Shown: positions 1 to 9,335 of the stretch, piece by piece
How positions within the stretch are numbered: the stretch's first letter is position 1
Layout of the letters: every line of letters starts with the position of its first letter
UHGV virus genome: UHGV-0242533
Length of the DNA: 64,000 nt
DNA from: a virus
Strand: one strand, 5' to 3'
The notes under the pieces: model-generated
The model's database searches: none
Told to the model about the DNA's origin: nothing
Seen by the model: the letters and a program-made list of their open reading frames with translations, nothing else
Program-made: the position numbers and the translations under genes

Positions 1-976
1 CACAGACACGTTTCCACGTATCAGGAATTTCGAATGGTTCACATTTAATTGTGTCATCCGATACATCATAAATCAAACCACTTCCTAACAATGGCATACC
101 TTTTGAACGCATTTCTAATTGCCACGCTGGAATACCTTCAGTCATATCTTTTATATCTTGGTCAGTGATATGTCCACCTAGGTCTGCATGAGCATCCCAC
201 CAAGAAGCATTCTGGAAATATAGAGAACCTGTGTTCTCATCCCCTTCACCTTTCATAAATTTATCTACCAGTTCAGTTAAACCGTTCTCTGGTGTAGCCG
301 TAATTGTAACTAGACCTTTAGTTGTGAGTGTACGTGTGACACACTGTGCGAATATAGCCATAGACTCGTATGGATCTTCTTCGTCTAACCAAATGTAGTC
401 AACTGTTGCACCCATCAATGTGTGTTCACCCTGTTGGGTTGAACGGAATTCTAATGTACTTAAACCGTCAAACTCTCCTCTTTCATTTTGATGTTTGATT
501 TGTACGATTTGAAGTTTGTTACCATCTCGTTCTATCGTGTCAATGACGATAGCATCACGAGGAATGACACCTGTCCCTAATAAATTTGTATCCTTTCCGA
601 TAGGTGTACCAAACAATTCCTTTTGCAATACTTTCCTTGTGGAATCCCCTGTAATACCAACTGCCCATGCTAAGATAGGTCTTTTAAATTTATATCCTGT
701 CCACCAAGTTGGGTAGCGACCTGTGACATGACAAGCAAACTCGTATGCCTCGCTATAAGATTTACCAACACGGTTCGCTGCACACAAGAATCTAAAGCGA
801 TGCTTCAATCCTGCTGCATAAAATTTCTTTTGGAAGTCATACGCCTTGAAAGACAAAATCCTATTATACTTCCTCCATTGGTCACGCTCTTTCAACATAT
901 TCAATAGTGCTTTCTTTTCATCTACACTAAGGTTGTTACCAGTTAGAGCTTCATAAATTTGTTTATCTAATGACAT
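1..976 (-). CDS. terminase large subunit, N-terminal ATPase part (partial; 3' end beyond window start)
   Basis: Reverse-strand ORF open from ATG at 976-974 to position 1 (absent from the ORF track because it has no stop in the window); translation MSLDKQIYEAL...; Walker A-like AANRVGKS and Walker B-like IWLDEEDP; GGAGG RBS upstream. Confidence 0.7.
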   Translation of the reverse strand, partial: MSLDKQIYEALTGNNLSVDEKKALLNMLKERDQWRKYNRILSFKAYDFQKKFYAAGLKHRFRFLCAANRVGKSYSEAYEFACHVTGRYPTWWTGYKFKRPILAWAVGITGDSTRKVLQKELFGTPIGKDTNLLGTGVIPRDAIVIDTIERDGNKLQIVQIKHQNERGEFDGLSTLEFRSTQQGEHTLMGATVDYIWLDEEDPYESMAIFAQCVTRTLTTKGLVTITATPENGLTELVDKFMKGEGDENTGSLYFQNASWWDAHADLGGHITDQDIKDMTEGIPAWQLEMRSKGMPLLGSGLIYDVSDDTIKCEPFEIPDTWKRVC

Positions 977-1045
977 ACTTCCTCCAGTTTAAAAATAGAA
1001 AAGGGAAAGTCCCTTCGTCAAAGAACCTCCCCTTCTTTCCTTTAC

Positions 1046-1519
1046 TTAACTCTCGTCCGCTTCCTCCCCCTTTTCAGCGTCCTCAGAGTTGTCTTCTTCT
1101 GGAGGCATAACGTCAACACCAAGTGCTCCAGTCAAGAAGTCCTTGATTTGTGCATTCAATGATTCTTCGTTGATTACATTCTCTTCCTCAATCTTAACTT
1201 CAACAGAGGCCGCCTTAGGATATACCAGATCTGCAACTTTTGATGCAGCCTTGAATCTAAGATCAGGTGGAATATTAGGATCTTCGTAAATTTGAATTAA
1301 CACTTCATCAGGAGACAAATGACTTGCAGCAACACGGTCCAACATTAATTGTGTCAGTTTACCTCTACTACCTTTGGGTCGTCCGAATTTATTTCCCTTT
1401 TGAAACTTCCCATTGCTTGGGTTCATACCACGGCTTTCAAGTTCTTCCGTTACTCCGGGTAATCTTCCTGTAACCTCAGCTACCTGTGCAGGCGTGAGTT
1501 CTCCGTTTTCTCCAAACAT
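1046..1519 (-). CDS. putative terminase small subunit / DNA-binding protein
   Basis: 157-aa ORF immediately upstream of terminase large subunit; basic GRPKGSRGKLT segment, acidic C-terminus. Confidence 0.4.
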   Translation of the reverse strand: MFGENGELTPAQVAEVTGRLPGVTEELESRGMNPSNGKFQKGNKFGRPKGSRGKLTQLMLDRVAASHLSPDEVLIQIYEDPNIPPDLRFKAASKVADLVYPKAASVEVKIEEENVINEESLNAQIKDFLTGALGVDVMPPEEDNSEDAEKGEEADES

Positions 1520-1575
1520 TTTATACTCCTTCTACATTATCAACAACACAAAAAGCCTCCCAACGGAGGCAAATA

Positions 1576-2271
1576 TTACTTACAATCACCAACGGACAGG
1601 TTAAACATCTTACCTAGAGCAATCGTCTCACCTTCCCACGGAAGTTCTGCACCCTTCTCTTCCTCTAAAAGAATAGAGCCGTCGACCAAAAATTTTTCGT
1701 AGTCTCGCAGTGCGTCGTCTACTAACTCACTCTTGTGAATCCACGTAATTGTTTCTGTACCATCCTCTTCGATTCGAACATCACGATGCCATTCATCTTT
1801 GGAGGTAATGTAATCATGGAGCATTTCATATTCAGCTTCTTCAATCATCTCAATCATTGCACGAGCATAGTCAGGGAGGTGATCATGTTTAGTAGATTCG
1901 TATTCAACTACTTCCAGAGTAGAAGGCTTAGCCCGTGCAACTTCTTCAAGTACTTTTGATCGATCTTTGTAGTAGTTCTCATATTTATCACCAATAGTAC
2001 CGACTTGAAGTCCACGGTATTGTTCTACTAAACTCATCATATCTTTCTTCTCCGTAATAGTTGGTTTAAGAATACTTCCACTATATAAATCTTGTACAGC
2101 CAGTCCTGAAACATTTCCCATAGTTTCTAAATGTTGCAAGCTACAACCAGAACGACACAGCTGTGAATTGTAGTCAACCATGTCCATTGCTTTGATGTGG
2201 AAAGGAGAACCAGAAGGGAAACTACCTCCATAAACACCTTCCATGTTAACTGCGATTATTTTATTATTCAT
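1576..2271 (-). CDS. hypothetical protein (231 aa)
   Basis: Long ORF in late operon, overlaps neighbour by 8 nt (translational coupling). Confidence 0.6.
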   Translation of the reverse strand: MNNKIIAVNMEGVYGGSFPSGSPFHIKAMDMVDYNSQLCRSGCSLQHLETMGNVSGLAVQDLYSGSILKPTITEKKDMMSLVEQYRGLQVGTIGDKYENYYKDRSKVLEEVARAKPSTLEVVEYESTKHDHLPDYARAMIEMIEEAEYEMLHDYITSKDEWHRDVRIEEDGTETITWIHKSELVDDALRDYEKFLVDGSILLEEEKGAELPWEGETIALGKMFNLSVGDCK

Positions 2272-2518
2272 TTGTATCTCCCTTGCTGTAATCTTTGTAT
2301 GTTTCTACTTTGTAAGTGCGGAATGCTCTGAAGAAGAGCCAACCTAAGCTACTCACATCAATTGTGATATCGAAATCTGTATCATCATCTAAATCAACAA
2401 GACGACCTAAGCATGTAGCTTCCATCCCTTCTTCAGAGTCACTGTTGACTACGAAAGCGTATGTCTCAGTTCTGAACCGAGGCACCAACTCTGATAAAAA
2501 GTCTAATACTAAATTCAT
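2264..2518 (-). CDS. hypothetical acidic protein (84 aa), first gene of minus-strand operon
   Basis: ORF with AGGAGAAG RBS on minus strand upstream of ATG at 2518. Confidence 0.5.
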   Translation of the reverse strand: MNLVLDFLSELVPRFRTETYAFVVNSDSEEGMEATCLGRLVDLDDDTDFDITIDVSSLGWLFFRAFRTYKVETYKDYSKGDTNE

Positions 2519-2544
2519 AATTCTTCTCCTCTGAATAAAAGTAT

Positions 2545-2672
2545 AAAGGGCACATCATAAGATCAACCCGTAAAGGCCACGTCATACCAACAACCCGTGT
2601 ACGCTGAAGTAAAGGGCATGTCATAAAGGGGACTTCATGTTAAGGCACCCTCACATTAAGGCCATGTCATTA
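2545..2672. repeat. array of five direct repeats, consensus AARGGCMnnTCATA, spaced about 25-40 bp
   Basis: Copies at 2545, 2572, 2611, 2642, 2658 read directly from sequence. Confidence 0.6.
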
Positions 2673-3687
2673 GTCATACTTGATACACCTTGCTATAGAG
2701 AAGCAGATGAATAAACAGAAGACTATTACTAACCAGAATATCCATTCCATTAAGGTCTGTCCATCCATGTGCTGTGTTTAAGCTTACCACATTTACTACA
2801 TCTCCAAGTGGACTTATAAAGGGTGTGAACTCTTTCATCCCCGTAAGCTTTGTGTATCCGATAGTACTCATGATCACATTTGAATTGCTTAATGATTAAC
2901 TTAATTTTCCACATAAATTCTCTTTCAACCTTATATATAAGAGTTTAAAATTCTGATTTGACCGAATGGGGCTAGCCGCTCGCCGCGCGTTTCCTAAAAA
3001 GGGGGAGTCCTCATTTAAAAAAGGGTTATTGGCAATGCCTTTACCTTCCCTTTACATGTTCCACCTTTCCCCGTGCCTACTCCCCGTAGTTATTCCCCCG
3101 TGTATCCACACCACATAAATGGTGGGGCATACTTTTATGCCTCTGTATACTACCCAATACATTACCTACCCGTTTATTTAGTTCCCCTTTAAAGAGTGGA
3201 TGAGAGGCCAGCACTGTATAAAGGTCTGTATAATGATTAGATTAAGGCACTATGAATAAGCTAATAACACCCCCTAGTTACTACCCCATTCCCCCCATAG
3301 TTTGATTGTAAATAGTTTCAATAGTTGTTATTATGAGTGCAATATATGATGGGTGCATGGAATGCACAGCTACGAAGTAGCGTTGTATGTATGTATTAAT
3401 TAAGTGGAAAGATTGATACTTTCTTTTATGTTCTTTCTTTTTCAGCGTACCTGAGCGTAAGCGAAGGGTGAGTACGTAGTACGAACGGTCTTTGATGTTT
3501 GAGTAGATGATTTTGGTTAAGTGGTATATTACTACCGCACTATCTGGCTATCCTTCCCCGTGGTCTGTTCTGCGGTTGTGTGTTCCCCGTCCTATATAGA
3601 TAGTAGAATTAATTCACCCGTGGTCTTGCTTTCCTTATTAGGTAGTGGTAAATTGAATCTATCGATTGAGTGGTTGGAGTAGTAGAA

Positions 3688-3852
3688 ATGATTATCTTAG
3701 TAATGTTGGTGCTGGCTGTAGCGTTTCCTTTGCTTGCTCTGATTGTTTGTGAAGTGGTTGAGTTATTCACTGATAAAGGGTTAGAAGTTGTTGATAAACC
3801 AAGCAAATTTGATGGCGTGAAATTTAGTAAAAAAGTTGAAATTAGTTGTTGA
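3688..3852 (+). CDS. small hydrophobic membrane protein (54 aa)
   Basis: ATG at 3688 with GGAG 10 nt upstream; MIILVMLVLAVAFPLLALIV transmembrane segment. Confidence 0.4.
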   Translation: MIILVMLVLAVAFPLLALIVCEVVELFTDKGLEVVDKPSKFDGVKFSKKVEISC

Positions 3853-3877
3853 CATGTTAGGTAATAAGAAGTATAGT
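3849..3877 (+). promoter_or_regulatory. sigma70-type early promoter (TTGACA-17-TATAGT)
   Basis: AGTTGTTGACA box at 3844-3854, -10 TATAGT at 3872-3877; 41 nt upstream of gene at 3919. Confidence 0.5.
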
Positions 3878-3918
3878 TATCTCATTGAAACGAAGTATAC
3901 TAACTAAAGGGGTCAATC

Positions 3919-4395
3919 ATGAATAAGGCAAACTTTGTAATCGGTGCTCTGGTATTAACCTTCGGTAGTATGGCTATCGCTGACAAGATTGCTAGCGCTC
4001 CAGTTGCTCAAGCTGCTGTAGTTATGACTGATGCTGCTGATACATTCGTTAGCAACGCTCCTAAAGGTTGGATGGTTTGTAAAGGATTGGATTCAGATAA
4101 CGTCACTACGTTGATGAAAGTTAAATTATCTAACGTAACCAATCGTGGTATGATTTTGTCTACTCGTACACTTGACAATCAGAACAATGAGGATATTCTT
4201 CTTTCCCGTAAAGACAATGACCCTGAGTTGATTACCTTTGGCGATGTGCAGACTATCAAAGGTTCTAAAGTTGTGACTAATCTTGTAACGTATGGTACAA
4301 TGCAAGAAACCATGTTAGCCACTTCCGTTTATGCTGCTGATAACAGTATTTGGACGTTCCGCTTTCAGATGGGTGATTGTGTTAAAGCAAAATAG
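3919..4395 (+). CDS. secreted/periplasmic protein with N-terminal signal peptide
   Basis: 158-aa ORF, RBS AAGGGG; MNKANFVIGALVLTFGSMAIA signal-like N-terminus. Confidence 0.7.
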   Translation: MNKANFVIGALVLTFGSMAIADKIASAPVAQAAVVMTDAADTFVSNAPKGWMVCKGLDSDNVTTLMKVKLSNVTNRGMILSTRTLDNQNNEDILLSRKDNDPELITFGDVQTIKGSKVVTNLVTYGTMQETMLATSVYAADNSIWTFRFQMGDCVKAK

Positions 4396-4462: not shown

Positions 4463-4792
4463 ATGAAAACCCTAATCGCATCTGCTCTTTTATCTGTAGC
4501 TGTTCTTTCAACTGTTGGATGTTCTTCTTCTCCGCGTCCTAACGGTTGGTGTGCTCTGGAAGTTGAAGGCACTTGTGTGATGCGTTGGAAAGATGGCGTT
4601 AAGGTTCCTGCTGGTGAGATTGACATGAAGTACGAAGGTGCTAGCTGTTCTAATGGTGGGTCTGTTGATGAAAAAGCCTATCGTGAGCGTGATATGAAAA
4701 CACAAGCCGATTGGAAGAAGTCAGATTTTATCTCCCGAGCAACTCATTGCGGTGGCAATACTTCCGTTAAGGGTAAAGAATGGGACATTTAA
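4463..4792 (+). CDS. lipoprotein (paralogue of 13380..13679)
   Basis: ATG 4463 with AAAGGA RBS; signal peptide ending in lipobox LSTVGC; shares W-C-A-[VL]-[AE]-V-E-G and VP-[AS]-GEIDM and C-G-G motifs with the second copy. Confidence 0.7.
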   Translation: MKTLIASALLSVAVLSTVGCSSSPRPNGWCALEVEGTCVMRWKDGVKVPAGEIDMKYEGASCSNGGSVDEKAYRERDMKTQADWKKSDFISRATHCGGNTSVKGKEWDI

Positions 4793-4896
4793 AAAGATTA
4801 GTTTGCAATACTAGTTCTAACGTACTATCTTTGATTTTCACCGTGATTGCTACTGCAATTGCTTACTATGTTCTTGTTGTTTTGGGAGTGTGACTT

Positions 4897-5160
4897 ATGA
4901 CTAAAGAGTACAGCTACACTATTCCCACCCGTAACTATGGCGATATTGACTTTTCTTACACTGACACATCTGACAAGTGTTTAATCTTGTTCGTTAGTGG
5001 TGATAATATTAATGCGGTGGAGTTTCCTGCTGTTGCTCTAATCATGGATGACGTTAAAGCTGGTCATTATCTAGCGCAACGTGGGGTTCTTCTGTCACTG
5101 GAAGAAATTAAATTGCTTAGAGTATCACTCTTTGAAGGTAAAGGCAACGATGAAGAATGA
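4897..5160 (+). CDS. hypothetical protein (87 aa)
   Basis: ORF in early operon. Confidence 0.55.
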   Translation: MTKEYSYTIPTRNYGDIDFSYTDTSDKCLILFVSGDNINAVEFPAVALIMDDVKAGHYLAQRGVLLSLEEIKLLRVSLFEGKGNDEE

Positions 5161-5446
5161 TTATTTTTGGCGGTGCTTGTTCATTGCTACAGTGGTGCTA
5201 TTCGTCGCTGATATGCTTTACTCTTACGTTCTTTAAGGCCTGAGTGTGCTGTTTTTGTTTGTGTTTGTCGTGGGCTTCATTTCTTTAAATTATTTACTGA
5301 TTGTTGCCGCTCTGGATATTCTTAATCTCAATACTAAAGGTTGATTGCTATGTGGTTTATTAAATTCTTAGGCTTAATCTTTCTTCTTTATTGTGCCGTA
5401 GTCATGCCTATGGTCATAATTTATCTGATTCTATAATCCTTCCTGT

Positions 5447-5470
5447 AAGCCTCCTAGTGAGGCTTTTCTC
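5447..5470 (+). terminator. rho-independent terminator
   Basis: AAGCCTC-loop-GAGGCTT hairpin followed by TTCTCG. Confidence 0.5.
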
Positions 5471-5731
5471 GTTTCTAAGGTGATTGTATGCCTTCCTCCC
5501 TTTTAGCTCGTTGTGATGCTTCTGAGAGCGTCAAATAGTGCTTTACAAGCCTGTTTTAGTGTGTTATTCGCGTGCGCGTTCCTTTATACCTCCCTTCCCT
5601 GAAAAAATAATCGAAATAGGTGTTGCTTTCCTCTATCACTTCCACTATCATCTATTCATCGGTTAAGCAGTACCAAGTAGACAACCTGATAAGTCGTACG
5701 AAAAACAGGTAATCGATAAGAAATAAAAAGA

Positions 5732-5759
5732 TTGACAAGGTATCCAAACGTAGTAAGAT
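5732..5759 (+). promoter_or_regulatory. strong sigma70-type promoter P1 (TTGACA-16-TAAGAT) with A-rich upstream element
   Basis: Exact TTGACA at 5732-5737; AAATAAAAAGA upstream. Confidence 0.55.
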
Positions 5760-5879
5760 GGGTATCAGAAACAAAGCAAGGAAACTTGCAAATGCTCTTT
5801 AAAAACTTATCATCTTGCCCTTTCGCAAAGATTCACGCGAGATAAGGGAAAGGAATTCAAAGAAGATGATAAAAAAGAG

Positions 5880-5907
5880 TTGACAAGGTAATCCAGTGAG
5901 TTATAAT
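5880..5907 (+). promoter_or_regulatory. strong sigma70-type promoter P2 (TTGACA-16-TATAAT)
   Basis: Exact -35 and exact -10 consensus; AAAAAAGAG upstream. Confidence 0.6.
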
Positions 5908-6055
5908 GGTTGCCAGTTAGCAGATACACAGCTAACATGTTCTTTAAAAATATGACCTGATTCACTAGCCTAGCCGCTTAGTAATCCTCAATCAAATATA
6001 GCTGATTGATATATCCTCCCAATAAAGGGAACGACGAAAAAGATTAAAAAGATGG

Positions 6056-6084
6056 TTGACAGGCACTGAGAGTTAGGGCATAAT
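6056..6084 (+). promoter_or_regulatory. strong sigma70-type promoter P3 (TTGACA-17-CATAAT)
   Basis: Exact -35; AAAAAGATTAAAAAGA upstream. Confidence 0.55.
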
Positions 6085-7005
6085 GAGCACATTAGCTAAG
6101 GGAAACATTCCGAAGCGAAGCGAGACAACGGCTAACAGTTGCATAGCGTGAGCAAACACGCTGATAGATTTACCGCTCTTTAACAATATAAACGTTCTTC
6201 TATATCGGTTGAATATGCTTGATGATAATAACCATCGGAAAGCATACCAGATAAAACGGTGTAAGACTCTCTAGACTATCAGAGGAAACAGTCTTGCAAT
6301 CCCTTACTGGAAACGTCACCACTGATAAATGGATTCACTGAGTGCACGCAAAGACTTAAGCTAATCGCCCACGGTTAAGGGTAGCGGCGGTCATCGCTAA
6401 CAAGGCGCTACAGTGAAAGAAGTTAATCAGGGTAGACAAGTCCGACAAATTAACGCCCAATTGAGGGCGGCGGGGAGCGGTTAAAAAGTGGCAAATTGCT
6501 ATTTAACAATAAGGTTTAGTGTGAACGTTTACGATGTGAACGGCTTGAGATTCGTCTTACGATGAAAGTACATAGTCGGTTTATGTAGTAAACTCGCTGA
6601 AAGATATCAAACGTCGGAATACTAGACGGTTAATGACTCTTTCGCAATAGTCTCCCGTAGTGGGCGATGGCTAGCGATTGAGAGTTAATACAAAAGGATA
6701 GGCGAGAGCGAAAGCAAAGTAGACGATATTGCCGACGGTTACAATAACGTAACTAATTAGAGTCGGACACACTGCCTTATTGTGATGATTGATCATCGCT
6801 ATCAGGTCGGCTTTGTTTATAGCGACTAATTAAAGATACCAGATGAAACATCACGGATAAGGAGGCGGCAAGGTTAACTCCTGATAAGACCGCCTCACTT
6901 ACCTGTAACTGCTCAATAATGAGTGGTTAGAGTTAAGTTAATAGTGACTTAAACAAGCTCATAGAGAGCGGGGCATAGTGCCCTAAACATTAAAAGGTAA
7001 ATATC

Positions 7006-7905
7006 ATGGCTAAGATCTTCACTCTGGTTAACGAATCTGGTTTTAACGCTCTGGCTAACAACATCCGCAGCAACAACGCAGCGATTAAGCAAGACGTTTC
7101 TAACTTCCTGTTAGGGCACTTGCAGCACTTCCGTAGCAACGGTAAAAAGCTGGACGTATTACAAGCGGCGGTTGACTTCCTGTTAACTGAACGCTTCCGC
7201 GATATGGATGTTATTGCTACCGCAATCACTTTCTTAACCCCTATCAAGTTTAACACTGATGCGGCGAATGGTCGTAAAAAGTGGATTAATCTGGAAGGCG
7301 AAGCGAAAGCGAAAGAAGATGCGAAAGAAGCGCAAATTAAAACCAAAATGGAACAAAACCGTGCCCGCTGGTCAAACGCTTTCGAAAACTTCGCGTTAGG
7401 TCGTGAAATTGAAGTTGATAACCCTAACTTCTACAAAGGTTGCAATGACAACGTAGCGGCACACCTGCAAATCCCGGCGAAAAACAAGGAAGACTTTAAC
7501 CAAGATATTTACGCTTTGGTTGAACGCTTGAATGCAATCCGTATTGAAGCCAAATTACTGGCTGATGAGCGCAACGGCGCAACTAGCGATAACACTATCG
7601 CCCTGAGTGAAGAAGTTGGGAAGGTTAAAAAGTCCTTTGATTCACTCATCAAGAAAGTCACGGCCTCAACGGTAGCGATCTCGGATGATTATCTGATGAA
7701 CGCATCAAGCAAGGAATTAGAATCACTCGATTCATACGCTGATGAAATGGAAAAGACTGTTGCAGCTATGCAGGAGAAGTTAGAAAGTCTGCGCGGTCGT
7801 ATCTCTTCAACGGTTGCTACCCGTACCGAACAAGCGGCGAAAGCAGAAGAGGAAGAAGTATTGCGTAAAGCGGCTGAAATTATGGCGGCACGTCAGGCGG
7901 CATAA
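7006..7905 (+). CDS. early protein (299 aa), helical/coiled-coil C-terminus, unknown function
   Basis: First ORF downstream of P1-P3 and a 0.9 kb leader; codon usage unlike neighbours (GCG/CGT/CTG rich); followed by strong terminator. Confidence 0.8.
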   Translation: MAKIFTLVNESGFNALANNIRSNNAAIKQDVSNFLLGHLQHFRSNGKKLDVLQAAVDFLLTERFRDMDVIATAITFLTPIKFNTDAANGRKKWINLEGEAKAKEDAKEAQIKTKMEQNRARWSNAFENFALGREIEVDNPNFYKGCNDNVAAHLQIPAKNKEDFNQDIYALVERLNAIRIEAKLLADERNGATSDNTIALSEEVGKVKKSFDSLIKKVTASTVAISDDYLMNASSKELESLDSYADEMEKTVAAMQEKLESLRGRISSTVATRTEQAAKAEEEEVLRKAAEIMAARQAA

Positions 7906-7928
7906 GTAAGACAATTTGAATAAACATA

Positions 7929-7963
7929 AGGCGCTATCTTAACGGGTAGCGCCTTTTCTTTTA
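7929..7963 (+). terminator. rho-independent terminator
   Basis: AGGCGCTA-loop-TAGCGCCT hairpin plus TTTTCTTTT. Confidence 0.65.
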
Positions 7964-8016
7964 TCAGTGCATTGATTCAGTGCATTAATCAAAGAATCTA
8001 ATCAAAGGTGACGATC

Positions 8017-8731: not shown

Positions 8732-9175
8732 GTGGCTAAATCTAAAATCAGCATGAAGGGCGGGCGTTGTTTTGCTATCTCTGAACTAGAGAAAGAGAAA
8801 CCGAAGGCAACTAATCACGTTAGTAAGCGTAGTTTAAAACGTCGTGCTGCAAAGGCTGAGGCTGAATCCCATGTTCCTTCCAGTGTGGCAAAGCGTGTAG
8901 GCCATCGTGTCCATCGGGCTGATGCGTTGTTGTTGGCTGATCATAAACGTTCTTTGTTAAAGAGCGGGGGAGCTAAAACAGAAGAGGAGAAGAAGTTAGA
9001 AATCTTCTGTAATGGTCGCACCCGTGGTAAACAGAAGTTTAAAGGTAGCACGAAAGACCCGCAGGCTTTCCCTAAGACAAGCCAGTGTGCACCTGATGTT
9101 TTCTACGCAGATAGTAAACACAAGTGGGGCGTTGAAAAATACATTGACCCCATCAAAGAGGCAAGGGTTAAGTAG
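8732..9175 (+). CDS. basic K/R-rich protein (147 aa)
   Basis: ORF with RBS AAAGGAATAAG. Confidence 0.55.
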   Translation: MAKSKISMKGGRCFAISELEKEKPKATNHVSKRSLKRRAAKAEAESHVPSSVAKRVGHRVHRADALLLADHKRSLLKSGGAKTEEEKKLEIFCNGRTRGKQKFKGSTKDPQAFPKTSQCAPDVFYADSKHKWGVEKYIDPIKEARVK

Positions 9176-9255: not shown

Positions 9256-9309
9256 AGCCGCCTTTGAGCGGCTTTTTGCGTTACCGCCTCCTTAATTGGA
9301 GGCTTTTTT
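9256..9309 (+). terminator. two tandem rho-independent terminators
   Basis: AGCCGC-loop-GCGGCT+TTTTT and GCCTCC-TTAATT-GGAGGC+TTTTTT. Confidence 0.6.
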
Positions 9310-9335
9310 GTATCTATTATATAGGAAACCATGAA

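What the first reader, a model, noticed from the sequence alone, without database searches (positions are those of the whole stretch)
5480..7005. 1.5 kb ORF-free region: three tandem strong promoters then a 0.9 kb stop-codon-dense structured leader
Three near-consensus sigma70 promoters with A-rich upstream elements are spaced about 150-175 bp apart, but the first ORF starts only at 7006. The leader is saturated with stops in all frames, contains several hairpins (6381-6399, 6455-6471, 6858-6895, 6970-6983) and recurring ACGGTTA and GGTTAA words. It may encode an abundant early non-coding RNA, hold processing sites, or serve DNA entry or replication.
Basis: seen in the sequence. Interest (0 to 1): 0.55.

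Follow-up and report, generated by a model that had tools for sequence, protein, structure and literature searches.

The report
Phage rRNA-operon-like promoters driving giant folded RNA
A group of E. coli phages (phiEco32/Kuravirus) starts its main early operon with a cassette built like a host ribosomal RNA operon, with tandem strong promoters each followed by the host anti-termination signal boxA, which drives a conserved, intricately folded, non-coding RNA of about 800 bases that nobody has annotated and whose function is unknown.

Summary
Window 5480-7005 is the "spacer between genes 120 and 121" of phiEco32/SU10-like Kuraviruses. The three sigma70 promoters (5732, 5880, 6056) were already published for SU10.

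Two things are new as far as I could check.

1. Each promoter is followed, 25-84 nt after its start site, by a small hairpin. After the hairpin comes an exact match to the functional gamma-proteobacterial boxA consensus GYTCTTTAANA. This is the layout of E. coli rrn leaders. The motif occurs 95 times in 25 related genomes. It follows 53 of 69 promoter-like sites there and 0 of 17 elsewhere in the window.

2. The stretch 6187-6984 is not junk leader.
- It is present in all 98 related phage records and in more distant metagenomic relatives.
- It diverges at under half the rate of third codon positions.
- It has no coding signal.
- It folds at z = -8.
- It has 235 predicted pairs in 38 helices, 77 of them with compensatory changes (shuffles 39 +/- 3.6; slid controls 5-10).
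- It matches no Rfam family.

Best reading: a Nus-factor-antiterminated, rRNA-operon-like unit makes a large functional RNA ahead of the first gene. The RNA's role is unknown. DNA-entry or replication roles have no direct support.

The parts
5447..5465 (+). Intrinsic terminator that ends the upstream early operon and marks the left boundary of the unit
   Evidence: One search finds a stem of 7 pairs followed by a T run. The stem is conserved and the loop varies in relatives. SU10 annotates a terminator at the same place.
5707..5759 (+). Promoter P1: A-rich UP-like tract (5707-5731), -35 TTGACA, 16-nt spacer, -10 TAAGAT
   Evidence: scores it 10/12. One search gives 60% A upstream.
5776..5789 (+). 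boxB-like hairpin 1 (GCAAG-GAAA-CTTGC), 4 nt before boxA1
   Evidence: At the same place relatives carry unrelated hairpins (GTCA-GCGA-TGAC, GGCAC-TTA-GTGCC, CGCCG...CGGCG).
5794..5805 (+). boxA1, GCTCTTTAAAAA, about +28 from the P1 start site
   Evidence: Exact match to the consensus GYTCTTTAANA. It is invariant in relatives.
5807..5872 (+). Conserved stem (5807-5816 with 5863-5872) between boxA1 and P2
   Evidence: repeat I10: 10 nt, 100% complementary. One compensatory change can be read in L005 in alignment A1. Its role is unknown.
5855..5907 (+). Promoter P2: A-rich tract, TTGACA, 16-nt spacer, TATAAT
   Evidence: scores it 12/12. One search covers the A-rich tract. It is homologous to the SU10 promoter listed at 73668.
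5916..5936 (+). boxB-like hairpin 2 (GTTAGC-AGATACACA-GCTAAC), 2 nt before boxA2
   Evidence: Read from the sequence and folded.
5939..5950 (+). boxA2, GTTCTTTAAAAA, about +25 from the P2 start site
   Evidence: Exact match to GYTCTTTAANA.
6031..6084 (+). Promoter P3: A-rich tract, TTGACA, 17-nt spacer, CATAAT
   Evidence: scores it 11/12. It is conserved in all relatives. It corresponds to the SU10 promoter at 73511.
6145..6162 (+). boxB-like hairpin 3 (AGCGTG-AGCAAA-CACGCT), 12 nt before boxA3
   Evidence: Helix 3 of the fold: 3 of 6 pairs carry compensatory changes (GCGTG/CACGC, GTGTG/CACAC, ACGTG/CACGT, AGGTG/CACCT). Distant relatives carry an unrelated hairpin there.
6175..6186 (+). boxA3, GCTCTTTAACAA, identical to the E. 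coli rrn boxA core, about +84 from the P3 start site
   Evidence: It is kept 901-936 nt before the ATG even in relatives whose protein is only 47-70% identical.
6187..6485 (+). Folded RNA, domain I, closed by helix 6187-6200 with 6472-6485 and containing 11 inner helices
6486..6504 (+). Hairpin carrying a boxA-like word (6498 GCTATTTAACAA) that fails the consensus at the critical C4; part of an invariant 45-nt block
   Evidence: In PMC5725501 a boxA carrying C4T together with T6C lost SuhB association.
6506..6783 (+). Folded RNA, domain II, closed by the long-range helix 6506-6515 with 6774-6783; holds the most strongly covarying helices
   Evidence: Helix 6593-6598/6701-6706 has compensatory changes in 6 of 6 pairs.
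6784..6984 (+). Folded RNA, 3' series of eight hairpins, including the most conserved block 6862-6896 (GGCGGCAAGGTTAACTCCTGATAAGACCGCC)
6994..7905 (+). Shine-Dalgarno AAGGT (6994-6998) and the first gene, a 299-aa protein of unknown function that always accompanies the leader
   Evidence: phrog_13018, unknown function. The gene is found in the same 98 records as the leader. There is no Pfam, PDB or fold match.
7928..7955 (+). Strong intrinsic-terminator-like hairpin after the gene; a possible 3' end of a unit of about 2 kb
   Evidence: 12-pair stem followed by TTCTTTT.

Best explanation
The region is the start of the main early transcription unit of a phiEco32-like phage, and it is built like a host rRNA operon.

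Host sigma70 RNA polymerase starts at three tandem strong promoters that carry A-rich upstream tracts. Within 25-84 nt, each transcript carries a small hairpin followed by a consensus boxA.

By analogy with rrn leaders and with boxA-equipped CRISPR arrays, boxA RNA should bind NusB-NusE. With NusA, NusG and SuhB it should convert the polymerase into a Rho-resistant complex that also chaperones folding.

That lets the polymerase cross 0.9-1.2 kb of RNA that no ribosome protects, and probably continue far into the early operon.

The untranslated stretch itself (6187-6984) is a product, not a spacer. It is an RNA of about 800 nt that folds into two closed multi-helix domains plus a 3' row of hairpins, kept by selection across the whole phage group.

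Shown here:
- the promoter, hairpin and boxA anatomy and its conservation;
- the absence of coding signal;
- purifying selection on the leader;
- a fold supported by covariation on the + strand.

Inferred:
- Nus factor binding;
- resistance to Rho;
- the role of the RNA.

For the role of the RNA my split is about 0.45 that it acts as an RNA in its own right (scaffold, decoy or ribonucleoprotein, possibly after processing). It is about 0.3 that it acts only in cis on the stability or translation of the 299-aa gene. The rest goes to other roles.
For: Identity of the region: 97-98 Kuravirus-type records match it. The promoters are published for SU10, and stated there to be as in phiEco32.

boxA:
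- The published functional consensus GYTCTTTAANA (PMC5725501) has only 4 exact matches in 64 kb on both strands (0.48 expected).
- Three of them lie on the + strand within 392 bp, one after each promoter. The fourth is not conserved in relatives and so is chance.
- In 25 related genomes there are 95 boxA sites. 53 of 69 promoter-like sites are followed by one within 10-120 nt, against 0 of 17 promoter-like sites elsewhere in the window.
- The 12-mer is invariant while the hairpin in front of it is replaced by unrelated hairpins.
- The E. coli rrnG leader, fetched for comparison, has the same layout. It has tandem promoters about 120 bp apart with an A/T-rich upstream tract at P1. After P2 come a hairpin, 2 nt and TGCTCTTTAACAA, then a large untranslated RNA.
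- There is a precedent for boxA protecting long untranslated RNA from Rho: CRISPR arrays (PMC7665894).

The RNA:
- The leader is found in all 98 records at 76-94% identity, with a near-constant length of about 888 nt.
- Pairwise divergence is 0.12-0.15, against 0.31 at third codon positions of the adjacent gene.
- There is no 3-nt periodicity, indels are mostly 1 nt, and there is no conserved ORF.
- The minimum free energy is -253 kcal/mol, z = -8.1.
- RNAalifold on 22 sequences gives 235 pairs in 38 helices, with 99.2% of cells paired.
- 77 of those pairs carry compensatory changes, against 39.1 +/- 3.6 in shuffles (0/500) and 5-10 when partners are slid.
- With four distant relatives added, 112 of 187 pairs carry compensatory changes.

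Strand:
- G-U 537 vs A-C 11 cells overall.
- 364 vs 9 in helices that already have at least 2 compensatory pairs.
- The + strand alignment fold is better than the - strand fold: -451 vs -374, with 2% vs 4.5% broken cells.
Against: - No experiment bears on it here. No transcript ends, no Nus binding and no Rho dependence are known for this region. The two primary phiEco32 papers could not be read.
- No GU-rich boxC follows boxA1-3.
- The body of the leader is G-rich over C (35 of 90 windows have G-C of at least 8%, and 6 the reverse) and is highly structured. It may therefore be a poor Rho substrate anyway, so boxA may matter more for downstream genes, or for something else.
- In suhB, a boxA represses rather than promotes expression.
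- The fold comes from RNAalifold on closely related sequences. Individual helices without covariation, such as 6383-6398, are unproven.
- The predicted pairing of 6168-6174 with the Shine-Dalgarno region is not kept in distant relatives.
- Phage 7-11 has an equally long leader without any boxA.
Confidence: 0.62

Rival explanations
1. This is an ordinary, if very long, cis-acting 5' untranslated leader. The fold only stabilises the early mRNA or times the translation of the 299-aa gene, and no RNA with a role of its own exists.
For: - The leader and the gene are found in the same 98 records.
- They stay adjacent even where the protein is only 47-70% identical. The last helix always ends about 20 nt before the start codon.
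- No terminator separates them.
Against: - About 800 nt with 38 helices and conserved unpaired segments (divergence 0.132 unpaired vs 0.142 paired) is far beyond known bacterial or phage cis-regulatory leaders. That comparison is from my own knowledge.
- The one predicted contact with the Shine-Dalgarno region is not conserved.
Confidence: 0.3
2. The boxA copies act mainly as a sponge. Massive early transcription of 3-5 boxA sites per transcript titrates NusB, NusE and SuhB away from the host rrn operons. This contributes to host shut-off rather than, or besides, protecting phage transcription.
For: - There are several boxA copies per genome behind near-consensus promoters: 95 sites in 25 genomes.
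- Nus factors are autoregulated through boxA, which suggests their levels are limiting (PMC5725501).
Against: - This is pure inference.
- One boxA per transcript would do for antitermination, but the multiplicity is equally explained by one site per promoter.
- Nothing in the sequence separates the two ideas.
Confidence: 0.1
3. The region works at the DNA level. It could be a replication origin activated or primed by transcription, in the manner of ColE1 RNA II or the T7 primary origin. It could also be a promoter cluster whose job is to let RNA polymerase pull the genome into the cell, as with T7 A1-A3.
For: - Tandem strong promoters lie a few kb from the genome end that carries the early genes (SU10 coordinates).
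- ColE1 RNA II is also a long folded untranslated RNA (my own knowledge).
Against: - Compensatory changes with G-U but not A-C tolerance show selection on a + strand transcript.
- There are no iterons or AT-rich unwinding repeats; the repeat search found only short chance-like families.
- The minimum of cumulative GC skew lies near 3000, not in this region.
- A genome-entry role would explain neither the conserved fold nor its length.
Confidence: 0.1
4. The region hides unannotated small protein genes.
For: Some depositors small ORFs here (for example CHD5UKE1 and EK5).
Against: - There is no ATG ORF of 12 aa or more on the + strand.
- GTG and TTG ORFs lack ribosome-binding sites and are broken in several relatives.
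- There is no codon periodicity and indels are 1 nt long.
- Stop codons are enriched.
Confidence: 0.02

Closest known systems
E. coli rrn operon leader (P1/P2 promoters, boxB-boxA-boxC, Nus-factor/SuhB antitermination complex)
   Same: - Tandem strong sigma70 promoters 120-175 bp apart with A/T-rich upstream tracts.
- A hairpin followed after 2-12 nt by the boxA core GCTCTTTAA(C/A)AA, within about 30-85 nt of the start site.
- A long, untranslated, highly structured RNA downstream.

These were compared directly with the rrnG leader.
   Different: - The element is carried by a virulent phage.
- There are 3-5 promoter-hairpin-boxA modules rather than two promoters sharing one boxA.
- There is no recognisable boxC.
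- There is no GC-rich discriminator after the -10.
- The RNA is not rRNA (no Rfam match) and runs straight into a protein gene.
[quoted passage not shown] 2020, PMC7665894) and the boxA in the suhB leader (Baniulyte et al. 2017, PMC5725501)
   Same: - A consensus boxA sits upstream of a long non-coding transcript to prevent Rho termination.
- The same consensus, GYTCTTTAANA, applies.
   Different: - Those are chromosomal host loci, each with a single boxA.
- Here the element is viral, multiplied, and coupled to very strong promoters.
- In suhB the boxA represses.
Lambda-type nut sites (boxA + boxB with protein N)
   Same: A phage uses host Nus factors through a boxA RNA for processive antitermination.
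   Different: - In nut sites boxA comes before boxB, and boxB has a defined loop bound by N (my own knowledge).
- Here the hairpin precedes boxA, as in rrn.
- The loop and stem of the hairpin differ between modules.
- The boxA is the full rrn-type sequence rather than CGCTCTTA.
T7 early promoters A1-A3 and the gene 0.3 leader
   Same: Three tandem strong host-polymerase promoters at the start of the early region of a virulent podophage, followed by an untranslated leader (my own knowledge).
   Different: - The T7 leader is about 0.4 kb with an RNase III site and has no boxA.
- No large conserved fold is known for it.
Large structured non-coding RNAs linked to phages or prophages (GOLLD, ROOL) and phi29 pRNA
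   Same: - The size class, several hundred nt up to about 800 nt.
- Many covarying helices and conserved loops.
- A viral context; pRNA is also an early transcript from a genome end (my own knowledge).
   Different: - There is no covariance-model match to any Rfam family.
- It is located as the 5' leader of an mRNA.
- There is no evidence yet for a discrete stable RNA or for multimers.

Membership tests
rrn-type (N-independent) boxA / Nus-factor antitermination site | RNA-strand match to the functional gamma-proteobacterial boxA consensus GYTCTTTAANA | tested here: met
   There are three exact matches, at 5794, 5939 and 6175 on the + strand. Only 4 occur in the window, against 0.48 expected. 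The consensus comes from PMC5725501.
rrn-type (N-independent) boxA / Nus-factor antitermination site | Position in the transcript soon after a promoter, on the transcribed strand | tested here: met
   The sites lie about +28, +25 and +84 from the inferred start sites. 53 of 69 promoter-like sites in 25 genomes are followed by a boxA, against 0 of 17 controls. The start sites are inferred, not mapped.
rrn-type (N-independent) boxA / Nus-factor antitermination site | rrn order of elements: boxB hairpin upstream of boxA | tested here: met
   A hairpin lies 2-12 nt before every boxA. Its sequence varies and it covaries. The rrnG leader has the same order.
rrn-type (N-independent) boxA / Nus-factor antitermination site | GU-rich boxC downstream of boxA | tested here: inconclusive
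   No GT-rich run follows boxA1-3. One (GTTTAGTGTG) follows only the non-consensus word at 6498.
rrn-type (N-independent) boxA / Nus-factor antitermination site | Binding of NusB-NusE and recruitment of NusA, NusG and SuhB | not testable with these tools
   This needs ChIP, CLIP or in vitro binding.
rrn-type (N-independent) boxA / Nus-factor antitermination site | Confers resistance to Rho-dependent termination | not testable with these tools
   This needs reporter fusions with boxA mutants, with and without bicyclomycin.
Lambda-type nut site | boxA followed by a boxB hairpin of defined loop that is bound by a phage N protein | tested here: not met
   The hairpin is upstream of boxA, and its loops differ between modules (GAAA, AGATACACA, AGCAAA, GCGA, TTA). 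An N-like protein was not searched for.
Any described RNA family (Rfam 15, including rRNA, RNase P, group I/II introns, GOLLD, ROOL, OLE, HEARO, 6S, tmRNA, ribosomal-protein leaders) | Covariance-model match | tested here: not met
   cmscan of 4500-8000 on both strands gave no match at E of 1 or less. ARAGORN found nothing.
Structured functional RNA (generic) | Conserved secondary structure supported by compensatory changes beyond controls | tested here: met
   77 of 235 pairs carry compensatory changes, against 39.1 +/- 3.6 in shuffles and 5-10 in slid controls. With distant relatives the figure is 112 of 187. The fold has z = -8.1.
sigma70 promoter with UP element (rrn P1 type) | -35 and -10 hexamers at 16-18 nt spacing, with an A/T-rich tract upstream of the -35 | tested here: met
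   The scores are 10/12, 12/12 and 11/12. The 25 nt upstream are 68-76% A+T and 56-60% A.
sigma70 promoter with UP element (rrn P1 type) | GC-rich discriminator and short-lived open complex (growth-rate and ppGpp control) | tested here: inconclusive
   The sequences after the -10 are GGGTATC, GGTTGCC and GAGCACA, which are not the GCGC-type discriminator. Kinetics are not testable here.
Protein-coding gene or small ORF | Conserved open frame, codon periodicity, indels in multiples of three | tested here: not met
Replication origin or primer RNA (ColE1 RNA II type) | Site of initiation of DNA synthesis; R-loop and RNase H processing | not testable with these tools
   There are only indirect arguments against it.

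The most novel reading that the evidence does not exclude
Kuraviruses make their own "rRNA-like" molecule. It would be a large (about 800 nt) functional RNA that is a ribonucleoprotein scaffold, a decoy for a host factor or defence system, a self-assembling RNA in the manner of ROOL/GOLLD, or a ribozyme. It would be produced at very high level in the first minutes of infection by copying the host's rRNA production line: UP-element promoters, and boxA/Nus antitermination that also chaperones folding. This would be the first large structured RNA class of a virulent coliphage, and the first N-independent use of rrn-type boxA by a lytic phage.
Probability: 0.35. Interest if true: 0.85.

Novelty: new variant of a known kind. 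Interest (0 to 1): 0.72.

Why it matters
phiEco32 is a model for phage control of host RNA polymerase (gp36 sigma, gp79), yet 2% of its genome, sitting behind its strongest promoters, has been left blank in about 100 deposited genomes.

If the boxA modules work, it would show a virulent phage borrowing the host's rRNA antitermination machinery without an N-type protein. It would give a concrete candidate for the undefined antitermination that the phage 7-11 study invokes for its own early transcription (PMC8948821), though 7-11's own leader has no boxA.

If the folded RNA acts on its own, it adds a new, experimentally very accessible member (E. coli host, many isolates, BASEL collection phages) to the small set of very large bacterial and phage RNAs whose functions are mostly unknown.

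In practice, the cassette is also a natural, compact "strong promoter + anti-Rho" module for expressing long non-coding RNAs. The leader should be taken into account when Kuraviruses are engineered for therapy.

Tried and rejected
- Rfam at a permissive threshold: no match.
- tRNA or tmRNA search: nothing.
- Fourth boxA-like word at 6498: it fails the consensus at C4 and is buried in helices 17/18, so it is not counted as a Nus site.
- Exact boxA on the minus strand at 8955: it lies inside an ORF and is not conserved in relatives, so it is chance.
- Predicted helix pairing 6168-6174 with the Shine-Dalgarno region: it shows no covariation and is lost in distant relatives, so it was dropped.
- Search for pseudoknots among unpaired columns: only 5-nt A/U runs without covariation.
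- gp36 (phage sigma) promoter motif TAATGTATA near 5481: not within 1 mismatch.
- Homology of the leader to the 1-kb leader of Salmonella phage 7-11: none by nhmmer, and there is no boxA there.
- Function of the downstream 299-aa protein:
  - PHROG of unknown function;
  - no Pfam hit above threshold;
  - no PDB sequence hit;
  - AF2 model with pLDDT 72.5 and no fold match outside its own family.
- Its relation to 7-11 gp151: none.
- Repeat search for iterons: only short families.
- Literature:
  - Savalia 2008 and Pavlova 2012 are not held.
  - No paper combines Kuravirus with "non-coding".
  - No paper combines boxA, Nus factor and lytic phage.
  - No phiEco32 RNA-seq was found.
  - The svsR paper is unrelated to this region.
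- Three soil metagenome hits to the 20-mer probe (L013, L014, L017) were chance matches.
Full report
WHAT THE WINDOW IS. The region matches 97-98 records of Escherichia and Shigella phages of the phiEco32/SU10 type (Gordonclarkvirinae: Kuravirus, Nieuwekanaalvirus, SU7-like). In SU10 it is the spacer between CDS121 and CDS120, a few kb from the right genome end, in the early region. [quoted passage not shown] Its Table S2 lists them. Two of the listed promoters are the homologues of the window's P2 and P3. Almost every depositor leaves the rest of the spacer unannotated.

CHECK OF THE OBSERVATION.
- The upstream operon ends at an intrinsic terminator (5447-5465).
- The next real gene starts at 7006 (299 aa).
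- Nothing longer than 51 aa is open in between on either strand.
- The three promoters are at 5732-5759 (10/12), 5880-5907 (12/12) and 6056-6084 (11/12). They are 148 and 176 bp apart, each behind a tract that is 56-60% A.
- Promoter-like matches are not more frequent than chance in the region or in the window. The evidence for the promoters is therefore their quality, clustering, strand, conservation and the literature.
- Stop codons (81 vs 62 +/- 4.7) and the words GGTTAA (4 vs 0.38) and ACGGTTA (3 vs 0.09) are enriched over dinucleotide shuffles.

THE boxA MODULES. The repeat search grouped short words after each promoter (families D1 and D10). They read TGCTCTTTAAAAA (5793), TGTTCTTTAAAAA (5938) and CGCTCTTTAACAA (6174). 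The last is the E. coli rrn boxA core.

Baniulyte et al. derived a functional consensus, GYTCTTTAANA, for gamma-proteobacteria. It has four exact matches in the 64-kb window on both strands, against 0.48 expected. Three of them are these sites, on the + strand, within 392 bp. The fourth (8955, minus strand, inside an ORF) is not conserved in relatives and is chance.

Each boxA is preceded, 2-12 nt upstream, by a small hairpin (5776-5789, 5916-5936, 6145-6162). It lies about +28, +25 and +84 from the inferred start sites.

In 22 related genomes every copy of the cassette shows the same pattern. The 12-mer is invariant, while the hairpin in front of it is exchanged for unrelated hairpins. The number of promoter-hairpin-boxA modules varies from 3 to 5.

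Counted over 25 genomes there are 95 consensus boxA sites. 53 of 69 promoter-like sites are followed by one within 10-120 nt, against 0 of 17 promoter-like sites elsewhere in the window.

For a direct comparison I fetched an E. coli rrn leader. The 45-mer around boxA is present in all 5426 genomes at a median of 7 copies. The copy between clpB and 16S rRNA shows P1 and P2 about 120 bp apart and an A/T-rich tract before P1. Its boxB hairpin is followed after 2 nt by TGCTCTTTAACAA, about 30 nt from the P2 start. The large untranslated RNA comes next. The phage cassette has the same layout.

It differs from a lambda nut site. There boxA precedes boxB, and boxB has a defined loop for protein N.

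A fourth boxA-like word (6498, GCTATTTAACAA) fails the consensus at C4. In the suhB boxA, a C4T/T6C double change abolished SuhB association. This word lies inside helices of the fold, so I do not count it.

THE LEADER IS A CONSERVED FOLDED RNA. From window 6118 to 7005 the sequence is present in all 98 records at 76-94% identity, with a nearly constant length of about 888 nt.

Mean pairwise divergence in the leader is 0.12-0.15. In the adjacent gene it is 0.09, 0.06 and 0.31 at codon positions 1, 2 and 3. The leader therefore evolves at less than half the rate of third codon positions.

It is not coding.
- There is no ATG ORF of 12 aa or more on the + strand.
- The GTG and TTG ORFs lack ribosome-binding sites and are broken in relatives.
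- Divergence shows no 3-nt periodicity (0.126, 0.151, 0.135).
- Indels are almost all 1 nt long.

The single sequence 6187-6984 folds to -253 kcal/mol, z = -8.1. The opposite strand gives -218.5 kcal/mol, z = -6.4.

RNAalifold on 22 distinct sequences predicts 235 pairs in 38 helices. Counting on that structure gives these results:
- 99.2% of cells form standard pairs.
- 77 pairs show changes on both sides.
- Column shuffles give 39.1 +/- 3.6, and none of 500 reaches 77.
- Sliding the partners by 1-3 columns gives only 5-10.

Several helices are compensated at almost every position. Helix 6593-6598/6701-6706 is compensated at 6 of 6 pairs and 6862-6868/6890-6896 at 5 of 7.

The architecture is as follows:
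- Domain I is closed by 6187-6200/6472-6485.
- A hairpin follows at 6486-6504.
- Domain II is closed by the long-range helix 6506-6515/6774-6783.
- A 3' row of eight hairpins runs to 6984, about 20 nt before the start codon.

Unpaired columns are as conserved as paired ones (0.132 vs 0.142), as expected if loops and junctions matter.

G-U pairs outnumber A-C pairs 537 to 11. In helices that are independently supported by at least two compensatory pairs the count is 364 to 9. The plus-strand alignment fold is better than the minus-strand one. The selected molecule is therefore the + strand transcript.

No Rfam family matches at E of 1 or less, and no tRNA-like gene is found.

MORE DISTANT RELATIVES. 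The 299-aa protein has homologues only in this phage group among deposited phages, in the same 98 records. In the large protein collection there are also members at 67-70% and 47-49% identity, from assembled sequencing runs.

Their contigs carry a leader homologue detectable by a profile of the alignment (E from 1e-104 to 1e-18). Each has two or three exact boxA sites, the last one 901-936 nt before the ATG. Adding four of them raises the share of pairs with compensatory changes to 112 of 187.

HOW IT MOST LIKELY WORKS. Rho terminates untranslated transcripts. rRNA operons and many CRISPR arrays escape through boxA and the Nus factor complex.

A phage transcript that stays untranslated for 0.9 kb (from P3) to 1.24 kb (from P1) has the same problem, and it carries the same signal at the same place.

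I therefore propose that boxA RNA recruits NusB-NusE. With NusA, NusG and SuhB, these would render the early elongation complexes Rho-resistant. As described for rRNA, they would also help the nascent RNA fold. This step is inference; nothing here measures binding or termination.

There are caveats.
- There is no boxC.
- The leader body is G-rich and folded, and so perhaps a poor Rho substrate by itself. The main benefit may then lie further downstream, in a long operon of many short genes.
- In suhB, a boxA acts negatively.

The role of the folded RNA is unknown. Its size and complexity are those of RNAs that act in their own right. Its fixed position against the first gene is what one expects of a cis leader. 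I put about 0.45 on the former and about 0.3 on the latter.

A strong terminator-like hairpin right after the gene (7928-7955) suggests that promoters, leader and gene may form a unit of about 2 kb.

The protein gives no help. It has no Pfam or PDB match, and the AF2 model (pLDDT 72.5), which is mostly helical, has no fold match outside its own family.

RIVALS.
- A purely cis-acting leader remains possible.
- A Nus-factor sponge that starves host rrn operons is an attractive extra, but it is untested.
- A DNA-level role (origin, priming, transcription-driven genome entry) is not excluded as an addition. It does not explain strand-specific compensatory evolution, and it has no support from repeats or skew.
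- Hidden small genes are rejected.

NOVELTY AND LIMITS. The promoters are known. I found no mention of boxA or of a conserved folded RNA in this spacer in the papers I could read or in full-text searches. However, the two primary phiEco32 papers (Savalia 2008, Pavlova 2012) are not held and may contain remarks or primer-extension data on this region.

I class the finding as a new variant of known kinds. It combines rrn-type boxA antitermination moved into a virulent phage and multiplied, with a new large structured RNA family that has about 100 known members, all in phages of Escherichia and Shigella.

Noticed in passing
window 7928-7955: A strong intrinsic-terminator-like hairpin (12-pair stem plus a T run) lies directly after the 299-aa gene. 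The promoter cluster, leader and this one gene may therefore be a separate unit of about 2 kb, with downstream early genes depending on read-through.
   Followed up: no
L031 (Salmonella phage 7-11) 8865-9917, minus strand: An unrelated ORF-free stretch of about 1 kb lies before the first early gene, gp151. It folds well (z = -4.5), has no boxA and no sequence homology to the Kuravirus leader. It may be a positional analogue.
   Followed up: partly
L032, L033, L035, L037 (Logan assemblies), about 950-4000: Distant relatives have about 3 kb without any called gene between the divergently transcribed genes and the leader gene. In L037, 1053-2477 has no ORF of 45 aa or more. I did not look at what lies upstream of the boxA modules.
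   Followed up: partly
window 5476-5520: The block AAGGTGATTGTATGCCTTCCTCCCTTTTAGCTCG, just after the upstream terminator, is nearly invariant in relatives, although the surrounding promoter region is mosaic. The short ATG ORF it could start is not conserved (ATA in many relatives). It is not a match to the gp36 promoter motif.
   Followed up: partly
window 8955-8965, minus strand: An exact boxA consensus lies antisense inside ORF 8732-9175. It is not conserved in relatives (GCTCTGTAACA or GTTGGTTAACA), so it is a chance match.
   Followed up: yes
window 9264-10058: An ORF in the early gene block matches tail-fibre and adhesin PHROG families with collagen-like repeats. The homologous position in a distant relative carries Collagen and YadA_anchor Pfam hits (L032 6842-7690).
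   Followed up: no
L001 2456-2821 (SU10 gp121), L028 3-329 (Bas88): A small ORF upstream of the spacer is annotated "terminase" in several records, which looks like an over-call. The window lacks this ORF; its similarity to those relatives starts only at 5361.
   Followed up: no
window 5351-5437: A small hydrophobic ORF (MWFIKFLGLIFLLYCAVVMPMVIIYLIL) sits just before the terminator at 5447. It is conserved at the DNA level in relatives.
   Followed up: no
window 6862-6896: The most conserved block of the leader carries the palindrome GUUAAC at a hairpin loop. The related words ACGGTTA and GGTTAA recur at 6373, 6479, 6628, 6737, 6872 and 6925 in different structural contexts. These could be a protein-binding or loop-loop contact motif.
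   Followed up: partly
whole window: Near-consensus sigma70-like sites (10/12 or better) show a strong strand bias, 18 on the + strand against 2 on the - strand. Their total number (20) is not above chance (25.5 expected).
   Followed up: no
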